48,402 nt of DNA from a virus: the IMG/VR virus record IMGVR_UViG_3300045988_077050, positions 1 to 48,402 of that record; one strand, 5' to 3'. Below the pieces are notes generated by a model. The model saw only the letters and a list, made by a program, of their open reading frames with translations, was not told where the DNA came from and searched no databases. The position numbers and the translations under genes were made by a program. Of this stretch, positions 4,121 through 48,402 are shown one piece after another (position 1 is the stretch's first letter; each line of letters begins with the position of its first letter).

Positions 4121-4138
4121 GAAAGTTTTAAAAAAGTG

Positions 4139-4167
4139 TTGACAAGAACAACAAAATGTAGTATAAT
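4139..4167 (+). promoter_or_regulatory. sigma-A type promoter
   Basis: TTGACA 4139-44, 17-nt spacer, TATAAT 4162-67. Confidence 0.7.
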
Positions 4168-4254
4168 AACAGTATCAAAAGAGAATGTTCTCTTAATGAT
4201 AAAGAAAACAAAAAAAAATCAAATCAAACTAAAAAAAGAAAAGGAGAAAACAAA

Positions 4255-6798: not shown

Positions 6799-6802
6799 AG
6801 TG

Positions 6803-6831
6803 TTGACAAGAAATGCAAAGTATGATACTAT
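6803..6831 (+). promoter_or_regulatory. sigma-A type promoter with extended -10
   Basis: TTGACA 6803-08, 17-nt spacer, TGaTACTAT ending at 6831. Confidence 0.6.
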
Positions 6832-6837
6832 AGAAGA

Positions 6838-12882: not shown

Positions 12883-12912
12883 TTGACAAACAAAAATTAA
12901 ATATGGTATAAT
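12883..12912 (+). promoter_or_regulatory. sigma-A type promoter with extended -10 (drives terL)
   Basis: TTGACA 12883-88, 18-nt spacer, TGgTATAAT ending at 12912. Confidence 0.65.
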
Positions 12913-12919
12913 AAACATA

Positions 12920-12988
12920 ACAAAACAGATATGGTTTTTATTTACATCAACTCCCCAAAATTATGTAAATTTAACATATCTGTTTTGT
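12920..12988 (+). promoter_or_regulatory. long 5'-leader hairpin of the terL transcript
   Basis: 14-bp stem (12920-33 / 12975-88) plus inner 8-bp stem (12940-47 / 12963-70). The 15-nt loop caaCTCCCCaaaatt is complementary to GGAG-type SD sequences. Confidence 0.45.
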
Positions 12989-15573: not shown

Positions 15574-15864
15574 ATGTATCAAACTGAATTTATTGGAATG
15601 ATGATTGTAGGGCTATCTACATTAGTTGGTTTATTTATAGCTATTTTTAAACCAATCAATGAGAACACAAAAACAATGACAGAGTTATTGTTGAAAATGG
15701 ACGTAATGACAGAAAAGATGGATGAAAGAGACGAAGAGTTGAAACAACACATTAAAGATTTTGAAGATTATAAGAACAAAGTAAGGGAAAGCCAAAAAAG
15801 ACAATGGAATAAGATTGATGAATTAAGTGATGATATGATTAAGATTAAACATTCAATCAAATAA
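15574..15864 (+). CDS. BhlA/UviB-like holin-like protein
   Basis: A single N-terminal TM (IGMMIVGLSTLVGLFIAIF) followed by a charged coiled coil; sits next to the holin and lysin. Confidence 0.4.
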   Translation: MYQTEFIGMMIVGLSTLVGLFIAIFKPINENTKTMTELLLKMDVMTEKMDERDEELKQHIKDFEDYKNKVRESQKRQWNKIDELSDDMIKIKHSIK

Positions 15865-15877
15865 AGGAGGTAAAATT

Positions 15878-16105
15878 ATGTTTAAAAACACAGTGTTTAA
15901 AGTATCGGTTGATACAAAGAAATGGGCAAAGGCTACGTTGATTCGTGCGGTGAAAACATTTGCAGAAACATTCGTATCAATGGTAACAGTAGGACAGGCG
16001 TTTAATGAGGTAGGATGGTCACATATTCTATCAGTGTCTGGCGTAGCGGCAGTAATTAGCATTGCAATCAGTGTAGCAGGACTACCAGAAGTAGAGGGCG
16101 AGTAA
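15878..16105 (+). CDS. holin (LL-H-like family)
   Basis: LIRAVKTFAETFVSMVTVGQ...GWSHILSVSGVAAVISIAISVAGLPE matches the LL-H holin pattern; immediately upstream of the endolysin. Confidence 0.65.
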   Translation: MFKNTVFKVSVDTKKWAKATLIRAVKTFAETFVSMVTVGQAFNEVGWSHILSVSGVAAVISIAISVAGLPEVEGE

Positions 16106-16136
16106 TCGCCATTATTTTTTAACAGGAGGTATTATT

Positions 16137-17054
16137 ATGGGAACATATAACGTACATGCAGGACATTGTCCACAGGGCAAAGGAGCAAGCGGAGCAGTTG
16201 GATTGTTACAAGAATCAGTAGAAGATAGAAAAGTCAAGAATCGTGTTATTTCTGCGCTTAAAAATGCAGGTCATACAGTCTATGATTGTACTTGTGAAGA
16301 AAATACGACACAAAGCGGATGTCTGAAAAAGATAGTAGCGAAGTGCAATGCACATAGTGTAGACTTAGATGTATCAATCCATCTTAATGCAGGTGGTGGA
16401 AGTGGTGTTGAAGTATGGTGCTATGACAGTAAGACCGCTGCTATCGCATCTCAGATTTGTGTGAATGTATCTAATGCGCTTGGAATCCAAAACAGAGGAG
16501 TGAAATACTCTAAGAGCCTGTACGTGCTTAAGCACACAAAGGCGCCGGCTCTTTTGGTGGAGTGTTGTTTTGTGGATAGTCAGAATGATTACAGCAAATG
16601 GAATGCTGACAAGTGTGGAGATGCTATTGCTTCAGCTATCGCCGGAAAGACTGTACAAGGCAGCACAAGTTCTGGAAGTACAGCGACGTCTAAGCCATCA
16701 GCTCCGGTGAGTACAGGGAGACTAAAGGTGGACGGATACTGGGGACCGAAACTCACACGTAGGCTTCAGCAGATTTTCGGAACGCAGGTGGACGGAGTGG
16801 TATCTAATCAGTTTAGTTGTTACAGAGCGCAGAATCCTGGGCTTGATGCAGGTTGGGAGTGGGAATCTAAGCCATCTGGCTATTCTCCGCTCATCAAGGA
16901 AATTCAGCGTCATGTAGGAGTTAAACAGGACGGACATATCGGGCCGAACACAATCAGAGCAATTCAGAAGTGGCTTGGATGTGTACAAGACGGATGCTTT
17001 AGCCGGAAGTCTCCGTGCATTAAAAAATTGCAAGAATGGTGTAATAGACAGTAA
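16137..17054 (+). CDS. endolysin: N-acetylmuramoyl-L-alanine amidase (Amidase_3) with two PG_binding_1 repeats
   Basis: HAGH...GA.G...E, SIHLNAGGG, LVECCFVDS (amidase_3). C-terminal VDGYWGPKLTRRLQ and VKQDGHIGPNTIRAIQKWL repeats. Visibly higher G+C than the neighbours. Confidence 0.85.
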   Translation: MGTYNVHAGHCPQGKGASGAVGLLQESVEDRKVKNRVISALKNAGHTVYDCTCEENTTQSGCLKKIVAKCNAHSVDLDVSIHLNAGGGSGVEVWCYDSKTAAIASQICVNVSNALGIQNRGVKYSKSLYVLKHTKAPALLVECCFVDSQNDYSKWNADKCGDAIASAIAGKTVQGSTSSGSTATSKPSAPVSTGRLKVDGYWGPKLTRRLQQIFGTQVDGVVSNQFSCYRAQNPGLDAGWEWESKPSGYSPLIKEIQRHVGVKQDGHIGPNTIRAIQKWLGCVQDGCFSRKSPCIKKLQEWCNRQ

Positions 17055-17236: not shown

Positions 17237-17260
17237 GGCGGCAATAAGCCGCCTTTTCTT
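17237..17260 (+). terminator. rho-independent terminator
   Basis: ggcggc / gccgcc, then TTTTCTT. Confidence 0.75.
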
Positions 17261-17261
17261 G

Positions 17262-17290
17262 TTGACAGAATAAAATTGTTATGTTAAAAT
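17262..17290 (+). promoter_or_regulatory. sigma-A type promoter
   Basis: TTGACA 17262-67, 17-nt spacer, TAAAAT 17285-90. Confidence 0.6.
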
Positions 17291-18861: not shown

Positions 18862-18868
18862 AAAAGTA

Positions 18869-18897
18869 TTGACATTGTTTTGTTTTTAGTATATAAT
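18869..18897 (+). promoter_or_regulatory. sigma-A type promoter
   Basis: TTGACA 18869-74, 17-nt spacer, TATAAT 18892-97. Confidence 0.7.
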
Positions 18898-32851: not shown

Positions 32852-32882
32852 AAAAAGGAGTGCAAAAGCACTCCTTTTTTTG
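32852..32882 (+). terminator. strong rho-independent terminator ending the morphogenesis module
   Basis: ggagtgc / gcactcc with an aaaa loop, then T8; A-tract upstream. Confidence 0.85.
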
Positions 32883-32999
32883 TTTGTGTCTTTTAAATAT
32901 ACAATCTGTATACTTTCTTTATACTTCATTTAAAAATCACAAGATATAATATAAATGTAAGATAAAAAAATAAATAAAAACAAAACAGGAGGGAGAACA

Positions 33000-33485
33000 G
33001 TGTACGGAAATTATAACGGTGGGTATGGGGTTAGTCCGTATCAACAGCAGTTAGCACAGCAGAGAATGAGCCAGATAGAACAGCAATATAATGTGGGTGC
33101 ATATCCACAAAACAACTATCAAATGCAAAGCAATCAGATGGGAACGTTGCAAACTTTAAAAGGTAGACCAGTATCAAGTTTTGATGAAGCAAAAGCAAGT
33201 ATGATAGACCTTGATGGAAGTTTGTACGTTTTCACTGATTTGTCAAATAATTGCATTTACACGAAACAAATATTGTTAGATGGTTCAGCAGAATTAAAAA
33301 CTTATGTGTTGCAGGAACAAAAACAAAAAGAAGTCGAAACAAAACAAACAGAAGAAAAAAGCGTTACATACGTTTTAAAGAAAGATTTTGATAAGACAGT
33401 TAGAGAACTAAAGAAACAAATTGAAGTGTTGAAAGGGGAAGTATCTTATGATTCCAAAAATGATGAACCAAATGCTAAAAAATAA
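33000..33485 (+). CDS. cassette protein A: Q/N/Y-rich N-terminus, globular core, K/E coiled coil
   Basis: GTG start 7 nt after GGAGG. MYGNYNGGYGVSPYQQQLAQQ..., then GRPVSSFDEAKASMIDLDGSLYVFTD. Confidence 0.6.
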   Translation: MYGNYNGGYGVSPYQQQLAQQRMSQIEQQYNVGAYPQNNYQMQSNQMGTLQTLKGRPVSSFDEAKASMIDLDGSLYVFTDLSNNCIYTKQILLDGSAELKTYVLQEQKQKEVETKQTEEKSVTYVLKKDFDKTVRELKKQIEVLKGEVSYDSKNDEPNAKK

Positions 33486-33648
33486 TCCATTATTCCAGAG
33501 AGCAACTCAGATGGCACAAGGAAAGTCGGAGCAGGAATTAAAACAAATTGCGAGTAATTTGTGCAAACAAAGAGGAATAAACATGGATGAAGCATATAGA
33601 CAATTTGAACAACAGTTTTCCGTTATGATTGGGAGACAAAACAATTAA
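33448..33648 (+). CDS. cassette protein B: small helical protein
   Basis: 66 aa; overlaps the end of A; no motif recognised. Confidence 0.45.
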   Translation: MIPKMMNQMLKNNPLFQRATQMAQGKSEQELKQIASNLCKQRGINMDEAYRQFEQQFSVMIGRQNN

Positions 33649-33700
33649 GGTATAAGCCTAAATGGTTTATATAAATAAAAATTTAAAGGAGGTACATACT

Positions 33701-34492
33701 ATGGGTATGGACGGAAATGGTTTAAGTGTTGCAGATGCTCTCGCATTACAGAGAGATGGAAACGGTGACGGAATGTTCGGAGACGGAGGTTATTGGATTT
33801 TCTTTCTGTTTTTCCTCTTAGCGTGGGGCAATAACGGATGGGGAAATGGATTCGGTAGCGGTTCTGGTGGAACACAGGGAGCAGGATTCCAAGGATGGGC
33901 TACAAGAGCAGACATCAATGAAGGATTTGCGTTGAACAATCTCCAGAGTGGAATCAATTCCTTACAGCAGGGAATTTGTGATAGCACTTATGCTCTGACA
34001 AATGCAATCACAAATGGCTTTAACAACACAAACATGGGCGTTATGCAGGGCTTTAATGGTGTAGAAAGAAGCATGTGCAATATGTCCGCACAGCTTGCTA
34101 ATTGTTGTTGCGAAACAAGAGAGGCTATCCAAGGCGTAAATTACAATATGGCAAAGAACACTTGTGATTTACAGAACACAATGAACAACAATACAAGAGA
34201 TATTCTTGAGAGCCAGAACGCAGGAACAAGAGCAATTCTTGACTACCTTTGCCAAGACAAGATTTCTACACTACAGGCAGAGAACCAGAGTCTTAGACTT
34301 GCGGCTTCACAGGCAGACCAGAACGCAGTTCTTAGAGCGGCTATGGATGCTAACACAGCAGAAATTATTAGACGTACTGGAAATGACTGTCCAGTTCCTG
34401 CTTACGTTGTTCCGAACCCAAATTGCTGTTATGGCAATCCAGTAGGAGTCAGCTACAATGGATATGGGAATAACTGTGGATGTGGTTGTTAG
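33701..34492 (+). CDS. cassette protein C: single-pass membrane protein, Gly/Asn-rich juxtamembrane region, Cys-rich ectodomain and CGCGC terminus
   Basis: GGAGG RBS; TM GGYWIFFLFFLLAW; GNNGWGNGFGSGSGG; CCCETRE; ends NCCYGNPVGVSYNGYGNNCGCGC. C-ending codon preference like the capsid gene. Confidence 0.65.
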   Translation: MGMDGNGLSVADALALQRDGNGDGMFGDGGYWIFFLFFLLAWGNNGWGNGFGSGSGGTQGAGFQGWATRADINEGFALNNLQSGINSLQQGICDSTYALTNAITNGFNNTNMGVMQGFNGVERSMCNMSAQLANCCCETREAIQGVNYNMAKNTCDLQNTMNNNTRDILESQNAGTRAILDYLCQDKISTLQAENQSLRLAASQADQNAVLRAAMDANTAEIIRRTGNDCPVPAYVVPNPNCCYGNPVGVSYNGYGNNCGCGC

Positions 34493-34514
34493 TTCCGCTA
34501 AATGCGTGAGGGTT

Positions 34515-34540
34515 GGGCGGTCATAGTACCGCCCTTTTTA
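34515..34540 (+). terminator. rho-independent terminator inside the cassette (after C)
   Basis: gggcggt / accgccc, then TTTTT. Confidence 0.8.
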
Positions 34541-34566
34541 TTAAATAAAAAAAGGAGGTAAAACAA

Positions 34567-34962
34567 ATGCCATGTAGATTATACAATAACAATGGGTTTG
34601 GATGTGGAGGATGTGAACATTTTGTTCGGACAAACAGCGTAACATTGGTAGATTCTGTTCTTGTTTTAAACATTCCGCAGAAAACATACAGTAACAAAGA
34701 AAAGGTGTGTATTTGTGTTGCACAGGCAATTCCAGAGGTAACGTCAGAACAAACAGTTGCCATTACGATTGGAACAGAAGCAACACAGTATCCGTTAAGA
34801 ACAAAGTGCGGAAATAATGTTCATGCCGACCAGATAAGGAATCGGAGAGTATATCATACAAACGTAGCAACAGACACAGGAACATTTGTGATTTCTTCTT
34901 GCGAGTTGTGCAAAACATCTTTTAATTTTCCGGTAGTTCCAACAGCACCGGCAACAGTGTAA
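34567..34962 (+). CDS. cassette protein D: Cys-rich beta-rich protein
   Basis: GGAGG RBS; MPCRLYNNNGFGCGGCEHF...CICVAQ...SSCELCK. Confidence 0.6.
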   Translation: MPCRLYNNNGFGCGGCEHFVRTNSVTLVDSVLVLNIPQKTYSNKEKVCICVAQAIPEVTSEQTVAITIGTEATQYPLRTKCGNNVHADQIRNRRVYHTNVATDTGTFVISSCELCKTSFNFPVVPTAPATV

Positions 34963-34964
34963 TT

Positions 34965-35174
34965 ATGGGAGAAGAAAAAAGATGGAATCTTTTGGATGCT
35001 ATGACGTTTGTAGGTTTTTTCTTGGGAGTTGCGAACTATGGTGAGAACATATCGCAGAGCGATTTACAAGAAACAATGGGAAATGTGCTGAAGGATGTAC
35101 ATAGACATTTAGAAGAACAAGACAAAAAGTTAAATGACATTTTGGAAATGTTAAACGAATCAAGGGAGGGCTAA
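34965..35174 (+). CDS. cassette protein E: small N-terminal-TM protein with a coiled coil
   Basis: LLDAMTFVGFFLGVANY, then a charged helix. Same architecture as the BhlA-like gene at 15574. Confidence 0.5.
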   Translation: MGEEKRWNLLDAMTFVGFFLGVANYGENISQSDLQETMGNVLKDVHRHLEEQDKKLNDILEMLNESREG

Positions 35175-35177
35175 AGC

Positions 35178-35984
35178 ATGAACGATTATGATATGCAGGA
35201 ACAAAGCAGACGAAATGATAATGGAGAAGATTATGACAGAAGAACAAGAAACACAATGGACATGAGAATGGGAACGGATTCTATGCAGGGAAGTATGAAC
35301 ATTGGAAATATTAAAACAAACAATAGTGAAAGAGCAAGAATGGTGGAAGATGTTTATTTGAAACTTGACGAAAGAATGTGTAAGGCTTTAAATTTCCATG
35401 AACAGTTAGCAGATTATTTTTGTTTCCTAGGTTTACAGGGATTTAAACGAATGTGTGAATATCAGTACATGAAAGAATGTGCGGAGAAAAGAAAGGTACA
35501 TAAACGGTATATTGATATTCACCACAAAATTCTTCCTACTGTTGGTTGTACAGGAATGAATATCATACCAAAGGAATGGGAAAGACACACAACACATGAT
35601 ATTGATGATAGTGTGATTCCAAAGTACACAAAAATGGCATTGAAAACTTATTACGAATGGGAAATCGAAACAAAAGAATTGTTCAAGGAACTTTGTAACA
35701 AATTGCTACAGATGGGAGAACATTCTGACTACGAATTTCTGAAAGAACTTGTTCTGGGGGTAGAAAAAGAAATCAAGAAAATCATGCGGTTGTATGAGTC
35801 GTTAAATGGAACAGGGTATGACGTGAACGCTATCCAGAGTGTACAAGATAAATACCATGAAAAGTATAAGAAAAAGTATAATGACAGGTTTACAACAAAG
35901 AACAATTATAGACAGATACCGCCTTATCCGCAATATGGAGAGGACGAGGAAAGAAGAACAAGACGAATTGGATTCGAATATTAG
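35178..35984 (+). CDS. cassette protein F: ferritin-like four-helix-bundle candidate with disordered ends
   Basis: LNFHEQLADYFCFLGLQGFKRMCEYQYMKECAEKRKVHKRY and ALKTYYEWEIETKELFKELCNKLLQMGEHSDYEFLKELV resemble the ferritin helix pairs, but the canonical ExxH ligands are not evident. Confidence 0.5.
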   Translation: MNDYDMQEQSRRNDNGEDYDRRTRNTMDMRMGTDSMQGSMNIGNIKTNNSERARMVEDVYLKLDERMCKALNFHEQLADYFCFLGLQGFKRMCEYQYMKECAEKRKVHKRYIDIHHKILPTVGCTGMNIIPKEWERHTTHDIDDSVIPKYTKMALKTYYEWEIETKELFKELCNKLLQMGEHSDYEFLKELVLGVEKEIKKIMRLYESLNGTGYDVNAIQSVQDKYHEKYKKKYNDRFTTKNNYRQIPPYPQYGEDEERRTRRIGFEY

Positions 35985-35990
35985 AACATA

Positions 35991-36019
35991 GCACACCTTT
36001 TCTGGTGTGCTTTTGTTTT
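35991..36019 (+). terminator. rho-independent terminator ending the cassette
   Basis: gcacacc / ggtgtgc, then TTTTGTTTT. Confidence 0.8.
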
Positions 36020-36053: not shown

Positions 36054-36082
36054 TTGACTGATATAAATATATATGTTATTAT
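36054..36082 (+). promoter_or_regulatory. sigma-A type promoter with extended -10
   Basis: TTGACT 36054-59, 17-nt spacer, TGtTATTAT; preceded by an A/T palindrome. Confidence 0.55.
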
Positions 36083-36206
36083 AATATCAAGTTAATGGAA
36101 AACAAAAAAGTTAAAAACAAAACAAGTTAAAGGAGAACAGAGTTATGATGGAAAGCAGAAACAACTATGTAGATATGTTTTGTTTGTAAAATAGGAGGGC
36201 AGAACA

Positions 36207-36335
36207 ATGAAAAGAAAAATAAAAAGATTATGGCGAGAATGGGGTATAACATTAGAAGAATTTGAAATGTTTATTTGTGCAGTAGGATTCTTTGTTTTAC
36301 CTTTGGCATTAAGATTATTATTTTTTATAATTTAG
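36207..36335 (+). CDS. small hydrophobic protein (42 aa)
   Basis: GGAGGG RBS; MKRKIKRLWREWGITLEEFEMFICAVGFFVLPLALRLLFFII. Confidence 0.35.
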   Translation: MKRKIKRLWREWGITLEEFEMFICAVGFFVLPLALRLLFFII

Positions 36336-36346
36336 GTAATTTAGTA

Positions 36347-36375
36347 TTGACAAACAAAAAGTAAGGTAGTATAAT
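36347..36375 (+). promoter_or_regulatory. sigma-A type promoter
   Basis: TTGACA 36347-52, 17-nt spacer, TATAAT 36370-75. Confidence 0.7.
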
Positions 36376-36408: not shown

Positions 36409-37062
36409 GTGGAGAATATGAATTTTGAGTCTATGAAAGTGGCAGAGTTAAAAGAAGAAAGCAGAAAGCGTGGTTTGAAGTTAGAACACAAAGGACATAA
36501 GTTTACAAAGGGTGAGTTGATTGAAAGGTTAGTCCGTTATGAAAAAGAACAACATGACATTGATAGTGATATCCAGAAAGCAATTGAAGAAGCAGGAGAA
36601 GAGCCAAAAGAAACAAAATGTGAAGAAGTGAAGACTTGTGCAGACTGTAGCAAGTCACCATGTGAGAACACACCAGAGGTCAAAGAAAACAAAACAATAT
36701 TTGCGACAACGCTAGAAGAAATCGAGAAAAAGTATGGTGTGCGGAAACCACAGTTTATATATGATAAAGATTTGAAAGTAGGAAGTACCGTAGTCTTTGT
36801 TGAGGTTGTAGAAGCGAAAAGCGGATGGCTTGGTAAAAAGTTAAGAAAGGGAGTTGTTAAAGGAGTTAATCGCAAAAAAGAATTAGTGAAAGTAGAAATG
36901 TTCTTTGGAAAAGAGTATATACTAGGTTTTGAAGAACTGTTGTTTATTAAAGATAATGAGAGAGGCGGTTGGCTTCCGAAAGATATTAAAAATTTTTTGT
37001 GGAATCAAAATAACAGAAATAGGAGAAAGGAAGAAAATGAAAGAACAAACAAGTCTTATTAA
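36409..37062 (+). CDS. HeH/SAP-motif DNA-binding protein candidate with an SH3-like C-terminus
   Basis: FESMKVAELKEESRKRGLKLEHKG at the N-terminus; first gene of the replication module. Confidence 0.5.
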   Translation: MENMNFESMKVAELKEESRKRGLKLEHKGHKFTKGELIERLVRYEKEQHDIDSDIQKAIEEAGEEPKETKCEEVKTCADCSKSPCENTPEVKENKTIFATTLEEIEKKYGVRKPQFIYDKDLKVGSTVVFVEVVEAKSGWLGKKLRKGVVKGVNRKKELVKVEMFFGKEYILGFEELLFIKDNERGGWLPKDIKNFLWNQNNRNRRKEENERTNKSY

Positions 37063-37570
37063 GGAAAGTGTGCGAAAGTTATATGAAGCAAAAAAAGAAA
37101 AAGAAAGAGTTGACTCTTTTTATGATGAAGTAAAGAAAAAAGAACAAATAGCAATTTCAAATTTTATGTTCACAAATTTACCACAAGAACAAAAAAGCTT
37201 TGATATCGAACTTGATGAGGGTGTGGCATATTATACAAACCATGTGAGACTGCAAGTAACAAGAGTTCGTAGACAAAAAGTAATTTGGTTATTAGACAAG
37301 CTGAAAAAGAAGTTAAGCAAAGAAATGTACAAGGATGTCGTTAAAAAGACATATACTATAAATGATATGCAAGGGCTTGTGAGGTATTTAAAATCTTGCG
37401 GAGTGGACGCTAAAAAGTTTAAGAAGTTTATTAATGTTTCGGAAGAAGCAGACGAAACAAAACTTGATTATCTGTACGACACAGGAAAGTTAAATAAAAA
37501 GGATATTGCAGGATGTTACGAAGTGCAAATGTCCGAGCCATATATAAGATTAACAGAAATAAAGAGGTAG
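37037..37570 (+). CDS. hypothetical protein
   Basis: GGAG..GGAAG lies before ATG 37037. Confidence 0.5.
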   Translation: MKEQTSLIKESVRKLYEAKKEKERVDSFYDEVKKKEQIAISNFMFTNLPQEQKSFDIELDEGVAYYTNHVRLQVTRVRRQKVIWLLDKLKKKLSKEMYKDVVKKTYTINDMQGLVRYLKSCGVDAKKFKKFINVSEEADETKLDYLYDTGKLNKKDIAGCYEVQMSEPYIRLTEIKR

Positions 37571-45112: not shown

Positions 45113-45134
45113 GGGGTTGACTTTGTGTCAGCCC
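45113..45134 (+). repeat. 22-bp element ggggttgactttgtgtcagccc, copy 2
   Basis: Identical to 39742..39763. Confidence 0.9.
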
Positions 45135-45145
45135 TATGTTAATAT
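45117..45145 (+). promoter_or_regulatory. sigma-A type promoter with extended -10
   Basis: TTGACT 45117-22, 17-nt spacer, TGtTAATAT ending at 45145. Confidence 0.6.
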
Positions 45146-45190
45146 ATAAGCATAGAAACAAGAGAACAATCGTTGAAGGAGAAAAATAAA

Positions 45191-47858: not shown

Positions 47859-47903
47859 AGTATCAGAACAAAGGAAGAAATAGAAAAACAGGAGATATGA
47901 ACA

Positions 47904-48402
47904 ATGAAAAAGAAACAACAAGGAAATGTTTATGTTACAGAGTTTGAAACCATCACAGAATTATCACATTTTATCGAAACAAATGAACCGTATGAAAACT
48001 TTTTAAACAAGAAAACTGGTTGTGACAGTATAAGCGGTGATTATACATTCACTCAAACAAACAATTTTGAAGAAGCAAAAGATTTGTTATTGCATGGGTG
48101 GGAACATGGCACAAAGGAAATCAAAAGACAAATAGATGTGAAACAAACTGGAATTTCCACAAAACAAAAGAACGTTTATGATGTGGTAGGATATCAATGT
48201 TCTGTTCCAAGATATTTACAGGGAATCCCAACAAACATGATAAATAACAAACCTGTTCCACAGAAAAACAAAGTCATAACCATTAACAAAATGGCTTGTT
48301 ATAGTTATAATGTTGATAGGAAAACAATCATAAAAGAAAGTGTGAAAGTGTTACAACTTGTGAATCGGTTAGAAAAGCAGGGATATCGTGTAAATCTCAA
48401 TG
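47904..48402 (+). CDS. 5' part of the wrap-around gene (continues through 1..357; 266 aa once the overlap is collapsed). Hypothetical; possibly a MIDAS-less vWA/CobT-like partner of the downstream AAA+ ATPase
   Basis: ATG 47904 follows GGAG at 47891-94. The frame runs off the contig end and is continuous with ORF 1..357 through the overlap. Confidence 0.7.
   Translation, partial: MKKKQQGNVYVTEFETITELSHFIETNEPYENFLNKKTGCDSISGDYTFTQTNNFEEAKDLLLHGWEHGTKEIKRQIDVKQTGISTKQKNVYDVVGYQCSVPRYLQGIPTNMINNKPVPQKNKVITINKMACYSYNVDRKTIIKESVKVLQLVNRLEKQGYRVNLN
48348..48402. repeat. Second copy of the 55-bp terminal overlap
   Basis: Identical to 1..55. Confidence 0.95.

What the first reader, a model, noticed from the sequence alone, without database searches (positions are those of the whole stretch)
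32883..36019. Terminator-bounded six-gene cassette of low-complexity, Cys-rich, membrane-anchored and ferritin-like proteins with no assignable function
A self-contained unit sits between the strong terminator that ends the tail module (32852-82) and the terminator before the replication module (35991-36019). It has an internal terminator after the third gene (34515-40).

Contents:
- A (33000): a prion-like Q/N/Y-rich N-terminus, a small globular core (GRPVSSFDEAKASMIDLDGSLYVFTD) and a K/E coiled coil.
- B (33448): a 66-aa helical protein.
- C (33701): a type-II single-pass membrane protein with a GNNGWGNGFGSGSGG stretch, a repetitive N/Q/Cys-rich ectodomain (CCCETRE...) and a C-terminus ending CCYGNPVGVSYNGYGNNCGCGC.
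- D (34567): a Cys-rich protein beginning MPCRLYNNNGFGCGGCEHF.
- E (34965): a 69-aa protein with an N-terminal TM and a coiled coil.
- F (35178): a ferritin-like helix-pair pattern without obvious ExxH iron ligands.

Why it stands out:
- Five of the six genes (all except B) have strong GGAGG sites.
- C uses the C-ending codon style (CAG, CTT, AAC, GAC, TTC) also seen in the capsid gene, which implies high late expression.
- The upstream region has a TATAAT (32945-50) but lacks the TTGACA -35 present at about 15 other promoters. It carries a tataca/tgtata inverted repeat instead, which suggests separate regulation.
- The phage already has a complete holin and endolysin set elsewhere, so this is not simply the lysis module.

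The composition recalls spore-coat or YjcZ-like proteins, or a secreted or membrane-embedded disulfide-linked assembly. Possible roles are an envelope-remodelling, superinfection-exclusion or virion-decoration system. I cannot match it to any described system.
Basis: partly seen in the sequence, partly recalled or inferred. Interest (0 to 1): 0.78.

Follow-up and report, generated by a model that had tools for sequence, protein, structure and literature searches.

The report
Conserved phage membrane stalk-and-head gene module
The six genes are a real, very widespread and completely uncharacterised gene module of gut-anaerobe phages, built around a cysteine-rich helical protein with a greasy N-terminal anchor and a small fibre-head-like partner; it usually sits next to the lysis genes, and nobody knows what it does.

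Summary
The cassette is real. There are six co-oriented ORFs, A to F, between terminators at 32852-79 and 35990-36011, with an internal terminator at 34515-34.

It is a conserved module, not a set of unrelated morons. In 185 related loci (viral contigs, Clostridia genomes, cultured phages) the order is fixed: A, B/B', C, (E), D/D', then a last slot holding F, c6, c8 or c12. Clostridium perfringens phage XP41-N3 has all six genes in the same order.

- **C** (phrog_16490) has at least 8000 clusters. It also occurs in crAss-like and Bacteroides phages and in viruses assigned to methanogens. A CCC motif is invariant.
- **D** is a beta-sandwich that resembles phage fibre heads.
- **D'**, the alternative in D's slot, is homologous to the C1q-like head of F-BclA.
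- **F** is a ferritin homologue without the conserved ExxH.

No Pfam, NCBIfam, PADLOC or PHROG function fits any of the six.

Relatives usually carry the module just downstream of endolysin and holin genes. My best guess is a late, membrane-anchored stalk-and-head assembly that acts at the host membrane around lysis or egress (confidence about 0.35). A virion fibre is the main rival.

The parts
32852..32879 (+). Strong hairpin terminator (12-bp stem, reads on both strands) ending the tail operon; upstream boundary of the module
   Evidence: sequence
32898..32912 (+). Perfect inverted repeat TATACAatcTGTATA, a possible regulator site
   Evidence: the only exact copy in the window; 13 matches at <=2 mismatches against 4.6 expected
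32945..32950 (+). TATAAT -10-like hexamer with no TTGACA -35; candidate weak or activator-dependent promoter
   Evidence: contrast with >=12 consensus promoters elsewhere in the window
33000..33485 (+). Gene A, 161 aa: Q/N/Y-rich N-terminus, small conserved beta-rich core, helix, basic-then-acidic tail. It is the first module slot.
   Evidence: phrog_21718, 2e-6; 79 of 83 loci; 69 of 80 genome loci; no PDB match
33448..33648 (+). Gene B, 66 aa: Met/Gln/Asn-rich small helical protein, overlapping the end of A. Second slot; the alternative family B' fills it in other phages.
   Evidence: 11% Met, 17% Gln; B co-varies with the last-slot family
33701..34492 (+). Gene C, 263 aa, the core of the module. 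It has an acidic/Gly-rich N-terminus, a 12-13-residue hydrophobic core between Gly-rich flanks, long N/Q-rich helices with an invariant CCC, a conserved PxPAY motif and a Cys-rich ...CGCGC end.
   Evidence: phrog_16490, 4e-79; >=7998 proteins; all-helical model, pLDDT 48
34515..34534 (+). Internal terminator-like hairpin after C (7-bp stem, 6 GC pairs, T-run); it would lower D-F expression relative to A-C
   Evidence: sequence
34567..34962 (+). Gene D, 131 aa: disordered Cys-rich N-terminal peptide (C3, C13, C16) followed by an 8-strand beta-sandwich resembling phage fibre heads. Fourth slot; the alternative is the C1q-like D'.
   Evidence: 7479 proteins; pLDDT 65, pTM 0.61; BFVD; 442 clusters at 50% identity
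34965..35174 (+). Gene E, 69 aa: small helical protein, translationally coupled to D. It is an optional slot, lying between C and D in other phages.
35178..35984 (+). Gene F, 268 aa: ferritin-like four-helix core flanked by R/D/N/Y-rich disordered ends. It occupies the last slot, which is filled elsewhere by c6/c12 or DUF7841 proteins.
   Evidence: phrog_17879; 25 loci, always at the end of A-B-C-D/E; ferritins, E 2e-6
35990..36011 (+). Terminator-like hairpin closing the module; consensus early promoters follow at 36054-36085 and 36347-36375

Best explanation
A-F are one copy of a portable, strongly conserved accessory module of phages of gut anaerobes.

**What is shown**
- The slot order is fixed: A, B or B', C, optional E, D or D', then a last slot with F, c6/c12 or a DUF7841 protein.
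- C is the only member with a hydrophobic segment.
- D has a fibre-head-like beta-sandwich fold, and the alternative D' is homologous to a C1q-like head.
- F is a ferritin homologue.
- In relatives the module normally lies just after, or inside, the lysis cassette.

**What is inferred**
- C forms an oligomeric, probably trimeric, alpha-helical stalk held at or in the cytoplasmic membrane by its short hydrophobic, Gly-flanked N-terminus. Its CCC layer and Cys-rich tail bind metal or form cross-links.
- D is a separately encoded head that docks on the Cys-rich end of C through its own Cys-rich N-terminal peptide.
- A and B, which are Q/M-rich, and the R/Y-rich last-slot protein F are assembly or chaperone-like helpers. 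None has a signal peptide, so they work on the cytoplasmic side.
- The assembly is made late and acts on a host feature common to monoderm, diderm and archaeal hosts. That feature would be the cytoplasmic membrane itself. The role would be accessory to lysis or egress, not that of a holin, spanin or endolysin.
For: **Module and synteny**
- jackhmmer on 83 loci finds A in 79, B in 55, C in 80 and D in 35, always in the same order.
- An independent set of 80 Clostridia genome loci gives A 69, B or B' 70, C 80, D or D' 77, and c6/c8/c12 72.
- In 25 F-containing loci, F always comes last.
- C. perfringens phage XP41-N3 carries all six genes in order.
- Between the window and its closest relative, C (88%), D (84%) and F (93%) are far more conserved than the tail fibres (42-50%).

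**Portability across hosts**
- C occurs in crAss-like phages, a Bacteroides phage, an extrachromosomal Bacteroides element and viruses assigned to Methanomassiliicoccales.
- The Q[LM]AxCCC motif is invariant across them.
- In crAss-like phages the DUF7841 protein lies next to C (hmmsearch E 7e-44). A D-like fold is fused to DUF7841 in one crAss-like protein.

**Lysis context**
- cr53_1, cr4_1, cr1_1 and cr116_1 all have holin and/or endolysin genes within about 3 kb of C. In cr1_1 the cluster lies between the holin and an L,D-peptidase.
- Among 150 ORFs upstream of the module in Clostridia loci, the commonest Pfam families are Amidase_2/3, PG_binding_1, NAGPA, CHAP and four holin families.

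**Late or high expression hints**
- Gene C shares the capsid gene's codon style.
- The crAss C gene carries an in-frame recoded stop. A review links recoding to late and lysis genes (PMC10136315).

**Folds**
- C model is all-helical.
- D model and its BFVD matches.
- D' against 9H38, the F-BclA C-terminal domain, E 6e-4.
- F against ferritins.

**Hydrophobicity**
- Only C has a hydrophobic segment; no member shows a signal-peptide-like start.
Against: - No experiment and no annotated homologue supports any function. The lysis link is guilt by association only.
- The same genome position, after the lysin, is also where morons and conversion genes sit.
- In this window the module is 16 kb from the lysis genes. 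In C. perfringens phage XP41-N3 and Bacteroides phage C3_41T2LP it lies among early or recombination genes.
- C's hydrophobic core (12-13 residues, KD19 1.34) is short for a membrane span, so membrane anchoring is itself an inference.
- The C model is low-confidence (pLDDT 48). The oligomeric state and the C-D contact are untested.
- C tail types do not co-vary with D versus D'.
- Fibre-head folds are typical of virion proteins, not of lysis proteins.
Confidence: 0.35

Rival explanations
1. Virion fibre or needle. C would be a trimeric coiled-coil shaft and D (or D') its separately encoded head or adhesin, mounted on the capsid or tail. The hydrophobic Gly-flanked N-terminus would be either the virion socket or a fusion-peptide-like membrane-inserting tip. 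A and B would be assembly chaperones.
For: - D's model matches parts of long phage fibre-like proteins in BFVD: collagen-like, T7 tail fibre, hyaluronidase tail fibre, tail-collar fibre and receptor-binding proteins, at E 5e-5 to 1e-2.
- D' is homologous to a C1q-like fibre head.
- Others have annotated crAss C homologues as 'spike protein' or 'viral fiber'.
- In the window the module directly follows the last tail gene.
- In crAss-like phages it is interleaved with collagen-like and 'virion structural' genes. In vir335 it lies next to a tail protein.
- Codon style resembles the capsid gene.
Against: - The module travels between siphovirus-like, crAss-like and other backbones while staying 50-90% identical. 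Between the window and its closest relative (L001) the tail fibres share only 42-50% identity, and most other related loci show no tail-fibre similarity at all. That is unexpected for a part that must fit a particular virion.
- It has its own terminators and a distinct promoter. In relatives it has a dedicated small sigma-r4-like regulator.
- It usually lies after the lysis genes, and sometimes among early genes.
- It includes disordered R/Y-rich and ferritin-like proteins that are not typical of virions.
- The Foldseek PDB search gave no significant match (best E 0.18).
Confidence: 0.25
2. Superinfection exclusion or receptor masking. A membrane-anchored complex would block DNA entry by, or adsorption of, other phages or the phage's own progeny, with D acting as a receptor-binding decoy.
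For: - C has a single hydrophobic anchor.
- The module sits in the accessory region with its own promoter and terminators.
- It is present in prophages of Clostridia isolates.
- D has a fibre-head-like fold.
Against: - Known exclusion functions are single, fast-evolving genes. This is a 5-6 gene module under strong purifying selection.
- D is conserved across phages whose tail fibres differ.
- In virulent crAss-like phages it sits in the late region and carries recoded stops.
- No partner has an export signal.
Confidence: 0.12
3. Spore-surface or lysogenic-conversion module. Phage-encoded coat- or exosporium-like proteins would be deposited on the host spore or cell surface of spore-forming Clostridia.
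For: - D' is homologous to the F-BclA C1q-like head of Bacillus endospore appendages.
- F belongs to the ferritin-like superfamily.
- The Cys-rich, Q-rich and Y/R-rich compositions resemble those of spore outer-layer proteins.
- Bacterial carriers found in the genome scan are Clostridia, many of them in spore-forming families.
- The promoter lacks a sigma-A -35 element.
Against: - C, D-like and DUF7841 partners also occur in phages of non-sporulating Bacteroides and in viruses assigned to archaea.
- The window phage shows no integrase in a by-eye ORF scan.
- There are no collagen repeats, no exosporium leader, and no Pfam BclA_C, DUF4183 or DUF3992 hit.
- The window's own D shows no sequence similarity to D'.
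Confidence: 0.08
4. The six genes are unrelated small morons that happen to be adjacent, and the low-complexity ORFs are not a system.
For: No member has a known function. E and F are restricted to some lineages.
Against: - The order is fixed and co-occurrence is strong in about 185 loci from three independent searches.
- All six are present in a distant C. perfringens phage.
- The B-slot and last-slot families co-vary perfectly: 52 of 52 and 71 of 71.
- D-like and DUF7841 domains are fused in a crAss-like protein.
Confidence: 0.01

Closest known systems
BclA / F-BclA type exosporium and endospore-appendage fibres (Bacillus; PDB 9H38; Sleutel et al. 2025, PMC12357932)
   Same: Both have an anchor, stalk and C1q/TNF-like head layout. 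The D' family that fills D's slot in many relatives matches the F-BclA C-terminal head at E 6e-4. Both involve Cys-rich partner proteins.
   Different: The stalk here is alpha-helical, not collagen, and the head is a separate polypeptide. There is no exosporium leader. The window's own D shows no sequence similarity to D' or to BclA. The module also occurs in phages of non-sporulating hosts.
Sf6/HK620-type tail needle (trimeric coiled coil with a TNF-like knob) and the T2-type gp37 fibre with its separate gp38 adhesin (from my own knowledge, not tested here)
   Same: A long helical shaft plus a jelly-roll-like head. In the gp37/gp38 case the head or adhesin is also encoded by a separate downstream gene.
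   Different: No sequence or Pfam similarity. Those proteins lack a hydrophobic N-terminus and belong to specific tail types. This module is found on many different phage backbones and outside the tail operon.
Rz-type i-spanin (with o-spanin partner)
   Same: An N-terminal hydrophobic anchor followed by a long helical domain with functionally important cysteines, and placement near holin genes in crAss-like phages.
   Different: Most carriers infect monoderm Clostridia. There is no lipoprotein partner: D and the crAss D-like proteins have no signal peptide or lipobox. crAss-like phages carry a separate LysB-like candidate upstream. No spanin family hit was found.
Ferritin (for example Archaeoglobus fulgidus ferritin, PDB 1S3Q/3KX9), for gene F only
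   Same: The F-family profile aligns to helices A-B (E about 1e-4 for that stretch) and more weakly to helices C-D of ferritins. The whole-sequence E-value is 2e-6.
   Different: The ExxH ferroxidase position varies (E, G or H) across the family. F has long disordered R/D/Y-rich ends and sits in a slot that other phages fill with unrelated R/Y/G-rich or DUF7841 proteins.
S-ENA endospore pili (Ena1A/1B: jellyroll subunits cross-linked through Cys-rich N-terminal connector peptides; bioRxiv 10.1101/2020.08.21.260141, abstract seen)
   Same: D is a roughly 130-aa beta-sandwich with a disordered Cys-rich N-terminal peptide and conserved core cysteines, the same general design as Ena subunits.
   Different: There is no Pfam DUF3992 hit. 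No Ena structure appears among the 50 best PDB Foldseek matches. Polymerisation of D is pure analogy.

Membership tests
PHROG phrog_16490 (gene C) | Full-length profile match | tested here: met
   E 4.4e-79 over residues 16-276, profile positions 3-281 of 286. The family is annotated 'unknown function'. vir335 gene 29 carries the same PHROG label.
Canonical holin | Small membrane protein (usually under about 150 aa) with one or more full transmembrane domains and a charged C-terminus, matching a holin family and paired with the endolysin | tested here: not met
   C is 263 aa with a 12-13-residue hydrophobic core and an uncharged Cys-rich C-terminus. It has no holin hit in Pfam, PHROGs or NCBIfam. 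The window's holin is 15878-16105 (Phage_r1t_holin, 2.8e-12), next to the Amidase_3 endolysin.
Two-component spanin (i-spanin plus o-spanin) | i-spanin: N-terminal transmembrane domain plus a periplasmic coiled coil | tested here: inconclusive
   C has an N-terminal hydrophobic segment and long predicted helices. Topology is unresolved, and there is no spanin family hit.
Two-component spanin (i-spanin plus o-spanin) | Partner outer-membrane lipoprotein with a signal peptide and lipobox; diderm host | tested here: not met
   D, E and the crAss D-like proteins start without a signal peptide or lipobox. The bacterial carriers found are Clostridia.
BclA_C / C1q-TNF-like fibre head | Sequence homology to a solved C1q-like head domain | tested here: not met
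   The window's D profile has no PDB match at E<=10, no Pfam hit and no hhalign similarity to D'. By contrast the D' family, in relatives only, matches 9H38 (the F-BclA C-terminal domain) at E 6e-4.
Phage fibre head or tip domain (fold level) | Structural match of D to the heads of known fibres | tested here: inconclusive
   BFVD gives 21 hits at E<=1e-3. They include collagen-like and tail-fibre proteins and a D-like plus DUF7841 fusion (TM 0.61, rmsd 1.8). These are predicted structures with automatic names. Against the PDB the best match is E 0.18, TM 0.39. The D model has pLDDT 65.
Ferritin-like superfamily (gene F) | Profile homology to ferritin four-helix bundles | tested here: met
   The F-family profile (11 sequences) matches ferritins 3KX9, 5LS9, 1S3Q and 5V5K at E 2e-6 to 1e-5, with stretches on helices A-B and C-D.
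Ferritin-like superfamily (gene F) | Conserved di-iron ferroxidase ligands (E, ExxH, E) | tested here: not met
   The position aligned to the ferritin His is E in the window and G, E or H in relatives. H74, E100, E162 and E198 are conserved instead.
Tail-fibre chaperone / baseplate accessory | Match to a known chaperone or baseplate family | tested here: not met
   No such hit for A-F in Pfam, PHROGs or NCBIfam.
Known anti-phage defence or exclusion systems (PADLOC) | Match to a defence-system protein model | tested here: not met
   The only hit is a chance-level ZorA match for C (E 0.034). Nothing was found for A, B, D, E, F, D', c6, c8 or B'.
Superinfection-exclusion membrane proteins | Blocks entry of superinfecting phage; no shared sequence family | not testable with these tools
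   Requires expression and plating assays.

The most novel reading that the evidence does not exclude
The module encodes a previously undescribed kind of phage machine shared by viruses of Firmicutes, Bacteroidota and perhaps methanogenic archaea in anaerobic guts. It would be a membrane-inserting, metal- or thiol-cross-linked coiled-coil stalk (C, with its invariant CCC layer) carrying a detachable C1q- or fibre-head-like cap (D or D'). Met/Gln-rich and Arg/Tyr-rich helper proteins would assemble it. It would act on the one structure all these hosts share, the cytoplasmic membrane. Its cysteines might act as a redox or oxygen switch on leaving the anaerobic cell.
Probability: 0.3. Interest if true: 0.9.

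Novelty: categorically new. Interest (0 to 1): 0.72.

Why it matters
C and D each have thousands of 90%-identity clusters in public metagenomes. The module recurs in phages and prophages of the dominant gut Clostridia, in crAss-like and other Bacteroides phages, and in viruses assigned to gut methanogens. Every database still calls its proteins 'hypothetical'.

A gene set that is this common, this conserved (more so than the tail fibres next to it) and this portable across unrelated hosts must do something important in the infection cycle of gut phages. Defining it would fill one of the larger blanks in gut virome annotation.

If the lysis or egress link is right, it would add a new class of players to phage lysis. 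If the virion reading is right, it would define a new, widely shared fibre. Three cultured phages carry it: C. perfringens XP41-N3, Butyrivibrio Ceridwen and Bacteroides C3_41T2LP. The question is therefore directly testable.

Tried and rejected
- **Family searches.** Pfam, NCBIfam, PADLOC and PHROG scans of A-F and of the alternative slot families gave no functional assignment.
- **Nucleotide search.** A near-identity search of GenBank phages found only a 223-nt match.
- **AlphaFold2 of C.** The model was too poor for fold search (pLDDT 48).
- **PDB profile searches.** A, C, D, c6/c12, DUF7841 (c8) and cluster 13 gave nothing significant.
- **Foldseek of D against the PDB.** Nothing significant.
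- **hhalign between slot alternatives.** D vs D', B vs B', and F vs c6/c8/c12 showed no detectable homology. Only c6 and c12 are related.
- **Search for C-D fusion proteins.** The exhaustive representative search with the D profile returned stand-alone proteins. The few long hits are chimeric or frameshifted calls: D fragments joined to Big_2, small terminase or ROK kinase.
- **Co-variation of C's tail type with D versus D'.** Not seen.
- **B as a detached N-terminal extension of the longer crAss or archaeal-virus C proteins.** The by-eye resemblance has no HMM support, so I dropped the idea.
- **D or the crAss D-like proteins as o-spanins.** Rejected: they have no lipobox or signal peptide.
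- **Sporulation-sigma promoter reading of the upstream region.** Matches in such AT-rich DNA are too weak to use, so I make no claim.
- **Literature.** Searches for DUF7841, for the carrier phages and for the crAss 'spike protein' annotation gave no functional data.
- **Source names.** NCBI members of the C and D clusters are all 'hypothetical protein'.

Full report
**What is in the window**

The window is a complete, circularly permuted phage genome with every gene on the + strand. Region 32883-36019 holds six ORFs:
- A, 33000-33485, GTG start
- B, 33448-33648
- C, 33701-34492
- D, 34567-34962
- E, 34965-35174
- F, 35178-35984

Terminator-like hairpins lie at 32852-32879, 34515-34534 and 35990-36011. 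The scanned stretch has 8 such sites against 2.3 +/- 1.5 in shuffles.

Upstream are a tape-measure protein, Dit, a Sipho_Gp37-like tail protein and a 378-aa fibre-like protein. Downstream are two consensus promoters and then a SAP-domain protein and a primase. The phage's canonical lysis genes are elsewhere: a Phage_r1t_holin at 15878-16105 and an Amidase_3/PG_binding endolysin at 16137-17054.

The cassette's upstream region has a TATAAT (32945-50) without a TTGACA. It also has a perfect inverted repeat, TATACAatcTGTATA, that is unique in the window. At least twelve other intergenic regions carry TTGACA-17-TATAAT.

GGAGG sites precede A, C, D and F but not B or E. E starts two bases after the D stop codon.

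Gene C stands out in codon use:

| Measure | Gene C | Window mean (sd) |
|---|---|---|
| G-ending fraction at Gln/Glu/Lys | 0.72 | 0.32 (0.11) |
| C-ending fraction at two-fold Y codons | 0.46 | 0.29 (0.09) |
| GC content | 0.44 | 0.35 |

On the C-ending measure C matches the capsid gene (0.45), while its G-ending fraction (0.72) is well above the capsid's 0.44.

E has no GGAGG site. E's 'transmembrane' stretch is weak (KD19 maximum 1.05) and is polar in its homologues.

**No known family fits**

Pfam and NCBIfam give nothing above noise for A-F, and PADLOC gives nothing. PHROGs places C in phrog_16490 (4e-79), A in phrog_21718 and F in phrog_17879, all of 'unknown function'. NCBI members of the C and D clusters are all 'hypothetical protein'.

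**The six genes are a conserved module**

C has at least 7998 relatives among 90%-identity clusters and at least 587 IMG/VR loci. I ran three independent locus sets.

| Locus set | A | B or B' | C | D or D' | Last slot |
|---|---|---|---|---|---|
| 80 viral loci plus three cultured/reference phages (83) | 79 | 55 B (+21 B') | 80 | 35 D (+39 D') | varied |
| 80 Clostridia genome loci | 69 | 70 | 80 | 77 | 72 (c6/c8/c12) |
| 25 loci found through F | present | present | present | D or E | F, always last |

The first set was searched iteratively with jackhmmer. The second was scanned with the resulting HMMs. The genome loci include isolates such as Anaerotruncus colihominis DSM 17241, Agathobaculum desmolans and Muriventricola aceti.

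The order is always A, B, C, D, E, F on one strand. Clustering of neighbours showed that empty-looking slots are filled by alternative families:
- B' in the B position, in 21 loci.
- D' in the D position, in 39 loci.
- After that, R/Y/G/D-rich proteins. These are c6 and c12, related to each other by hhalign at 92%, or c8, which is Pfam DUF7841.

Clostridium perfringens phage XP41-N3 carries all six genes in the same order at about 30% identity. In the F-derived loci a small sigma-r4-like gene usually lies upstream.

Between the window and its closest relative the cassette is far more conserved than its neighbours:

| Protein | Identity to closest relative |
|---|---|
| A | 66% |
| B | 80% |
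| C | 88% |
| D | 84% |
| E | 57% |
| F | 93% |
| Two tail-fibre proteins | 42-50% |

The B-slot and last-slot families co-vary without exception in 147 non-identical loci. B' occurs only with c12 (52 of 52), and B only with F, c6 or c8 (71 of 71). D and D' mix freely with the other slots.

**Reach beyond Clostridia**

tblastn finds C homologues in several other groups:
- Butyrivibrio phage Ceridwen
- Bacteroides phage C3_41T2LP
- an extrachromosomal element of B. thetaiotaomicron
- about twenty crAss-like genomes of two families, where they are annotated 'spike protein/glycoprotein' or 'outer capsid protein/viral fiber'
- two viruses assigned to Methanomassiliicoccales, one already labelled phrog_16490

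An alignment of nine distant members keeps the hydrophobic, Gly-rich N-terminal design and an invariant Q[LM]AxCCC motif. The bacterial-virus members also keep a P[VI]PAY motif and a terminal CGCGC-like tail.

In crAss-like phages the gene immediately upstream of C is a DUF7841 protein (hmmsearch E 7e-44). It carries a C-terminal R/G/Y/D-rich tail. The gene immediately downstream is a 128-146-aa protein without a signal peptide or lipobox.

**What the parts look like**

- **C.** It has an acidic, Gly-rich N-terminus (K+R 0.5 and D+E 3.2 on average) and a 12-13-residue hydrophobic core between Gly-rich flanks. Long N/Q/A/S-rich helices with 13 cysteines follow. AlphaFold2 predicts it all-helical, with helix 122-226, but at pLDDT 48, as expected for an obligate oligomer. 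The model is not fit for fold search, and the topology cannot be decided from flanking charges.
- **D.** With a 72-sequence alignment, the AlphaFold2 model has pLDDT 65 and pTM 0.61, with the core at 70-84. It shows a disordered Cys-rich N-terminal peptide followed by an eight-strand beta-sandwich. Foldseek finds nothing significant in the PDB. In BFVD it finds D's own family first. Next come parts of long collagen-like, tail-fibre, tail-collar and receptor-binding proteins, then small crAss-like proteins. It also finds a 294-aa crAss-like 'DUF7841 domain-containing protein' (TM 0.61, rmsd 1.8 over 93 columns), which fuses a D-like fold to DUF7841. The D family has 442 clusters at 50% identity, essentially all stand-alone. 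The few long hits are chimeric gene calls.
- **D'.** Its profile matches PDB 9H38 at E 6e-4. That entry is the C1q-like C-terminal head of F-BclA, the tip fibrillum of Bacillus thuringiensis endospore appendages (PMC12357932).
- **F.** Its profile matches ferritins at E 2e-6 over helices A-B and, more weakly, C-D. The ferroxidase His position is not conserved.
- **A.** It has a Q/P/Y-rich N-terminus, a small conserved core, a helix and a basic-then-acidic tail.
- **B.** It is a Met/Gln/Asn-rich mini-protein.

None of A, B, D, E or F has a signal-peptide-like start.

**Genomic context**

In cr53_1, cr4_1, cr1_1 and cr116_1 the C cluster lies within about 3 kb of holin and/or endolysin genes. 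In cr1_1 it lies between the holin and an L,D-peptidase. These regions also hold collagen-like and 'virion structural' genes.

Among 150 ORFs within 3.5 kb upstream of the module in non-redundant Clostridia loci, the commonest Pfam families are these:
- Amidase_3, Amidase_2 and PG_binding_1, five members each
- NAGPA (four) and CHAP (three)
- four holin families, nine members in all
- sigma-70 region 4 and GerE helix-turn-helix proteins

Downstream neighbours are mixed: scaffold proteins, ImmA-like peptidases, recombination genes and host genes. The usual place of the module is therefore the end of the late region, right after the lysis genes.

There are exceptions. In this window the lysis genes have moved between the terminase and the portal. 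In XP41-N3 and C3_41T2LP the module lies among early or recombination genes. One crAss C gene carries an in-frame TAG. A review notes that recoded stops concentrate in late structural and lysis genes (PMC10136315).

**Interpretation**

*Shown:*
- A fixed-order, portable, strongly conserved module.
- A single hydrophobic-anchored, Cys-rich helical core protein.
- A fibre-head-like partner, with a C1q-like alternative.
- A ferritin-like last-slot protein.
- The usual linkage to lysis genes.

*Inferred:*
- C forms an oligomeric stalk held at the cytoplasmic membrane.
- D caps its Cys-rich end through Cys-mediated metal or disulfide links.
- A, B and F are cytoplasmic helpers.
- The assembly acts late, on the membrane, in lysis or egress.

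I put this at about 0.35. The reasoning has three steps. The module moves between unrelated virion types while staying more conserved than the tail fibres, which argues for a host-side or self-contained target. Its hosts share only the cytoplasmic membrane. Its neighbours are lysis genes.

The main rival, at about 0.25, is a virion fibre or needle with a separately encoded head. The head-like folds, the adjacency to tail genes here, and the existing crAss annotations favour it. Superinfection exclusion (0.12) and a spore-surface or conversion role (0.08) are less likely, for the reasons given under the rival explanations.

**Comparison with known systems**

By design the module resembles four things:
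- anchor-stalk-C1q-head fibres such as BclA and F-BclA
- coiled-coil tail needles with TNF-like knobs
- fibres with a separate adhesin (gp37/gp38)
- in outline only, i-spanins

It fails the membership tests I could run for holins, spanins, BclA_C/DUF4183/DUF3992 families, tail-fibre chaperones and defence systems. Only F (ferritin-like fold, without the iron site) and C (phrog_16490, unknown function) belong to named families.

I found no paper describing the module. I therefore rate it as lying outside every described kind of phage system. If either of the two leading readings proves right, it would become a new variant of lysis accessory or of virion fibre.

Noticed in passing
window 47900-48402 and 1-357: The ORF at the right end of the window continues into the ORF at the left end (...VLQLVNRLEKQGYRVNLN...). 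The window is therefore a complete, circularly permuted or terminally redundant phage genome.
   Followed up: partly
window 15574-17054: The canonical lysis cassette sits between the terminase/HNH-like genes and the portal, not after the tail genes. It comprises a 96-aa N-terminal-TM coiled-coil protein, a Phage_r1t_holin and an Amidase_3/PG_binding endolysin. The A-F module occupies the place where relatives have lysis genes followed by the module.
   Followed up: partly
window intergenic regions, e.g. 1660-1700, 4137-4170, 6800-6835, 12897-12930, 17260-17290, 18866-18895, 36054-36085, 36347-36375, 45130-45165: Near-consensus TTGACA-17-TATAAT promoters occur all round the genome, including in front of portal and head genes. 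The phage seems to rely on the host's main sigma factor throughout. The A-F promoter is the odd one out.
   Followed up: partly
relatives, e.g. L054:4856-5233, L085:4775-5146 (absent from the window): A 125-aa family (phrog_3754, unknown function) with invariant D-C, H and D residues, possibly a papain-like triad, lies just upstream of gene A in 43 of 80 genome loci. It has no Pfam or PDB match, and could be a processing peptidase or a wall hydrolase.
   Followed up: partly
relatives, e.g. L166:1373-1660, L067:3767-4024, L075:151-372: Small (73-95 aa) sigma-70 region-4-like HTH proteins lie directly upstream of the module in many loci, including the window's closest relative. The window has none, only a 156-bp gap with an inverted repeat.
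   Followed up: partly
147 non-identical related loci: The B-slot and last-slot families co-vary perfectly: B' only with c12 (52 of 52), B only with F, c6 or c8 (71 of 71). D and D' combine freely. This hints at a direct B to last-slot interaction, or at two module lineages.
   Followed up: partly
L083:4725-5639 (crAss-like phage cr53_1) and neighbouring genes: The crAss-like C homologue and its neighbours contain in-frame TAG codons, so this phage recodes stop codons in this gene cluster.
   Followed up: no
L164:4650-5573 (Caudoviricetes sp. vir335) and vir215: C homologues occur in viruses whose GenBank host field is Methanomassiliicoccales. They keep the CCC motif but lack the Cys-rich tail. 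Either the family crosses domains or the host assignment is wrong.
   Followed up: no
window 37034-37570: A weak, below-threshold match to the DSBA-like thioredoxin domain (E 0.0018, 18.5 bits against a cutoff of 25.6) in the gene after the SAP-domain protein. There is no CxxC motif, so it is probably noise. I note it because the neighbouring module is so Cys-rich.
   Followed up: no
window 36207-36335: A 42-aa ORF with a hydrophobic C-terminal half and its own GGAGG site lies between the two consensus promoters that open the replication module.
   Followed up: no
L165:6798-7031 and L083:4060-4695, L193:2964-3707: The Bacteroides and crAss-like versions of the cluster also include proteins with extreme R/D/E/Y/G-rich tails that end in an aromatic residue, like the ends of F. 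This recurrent compositional feature of the last slot is unexplained.
   Followed up: no
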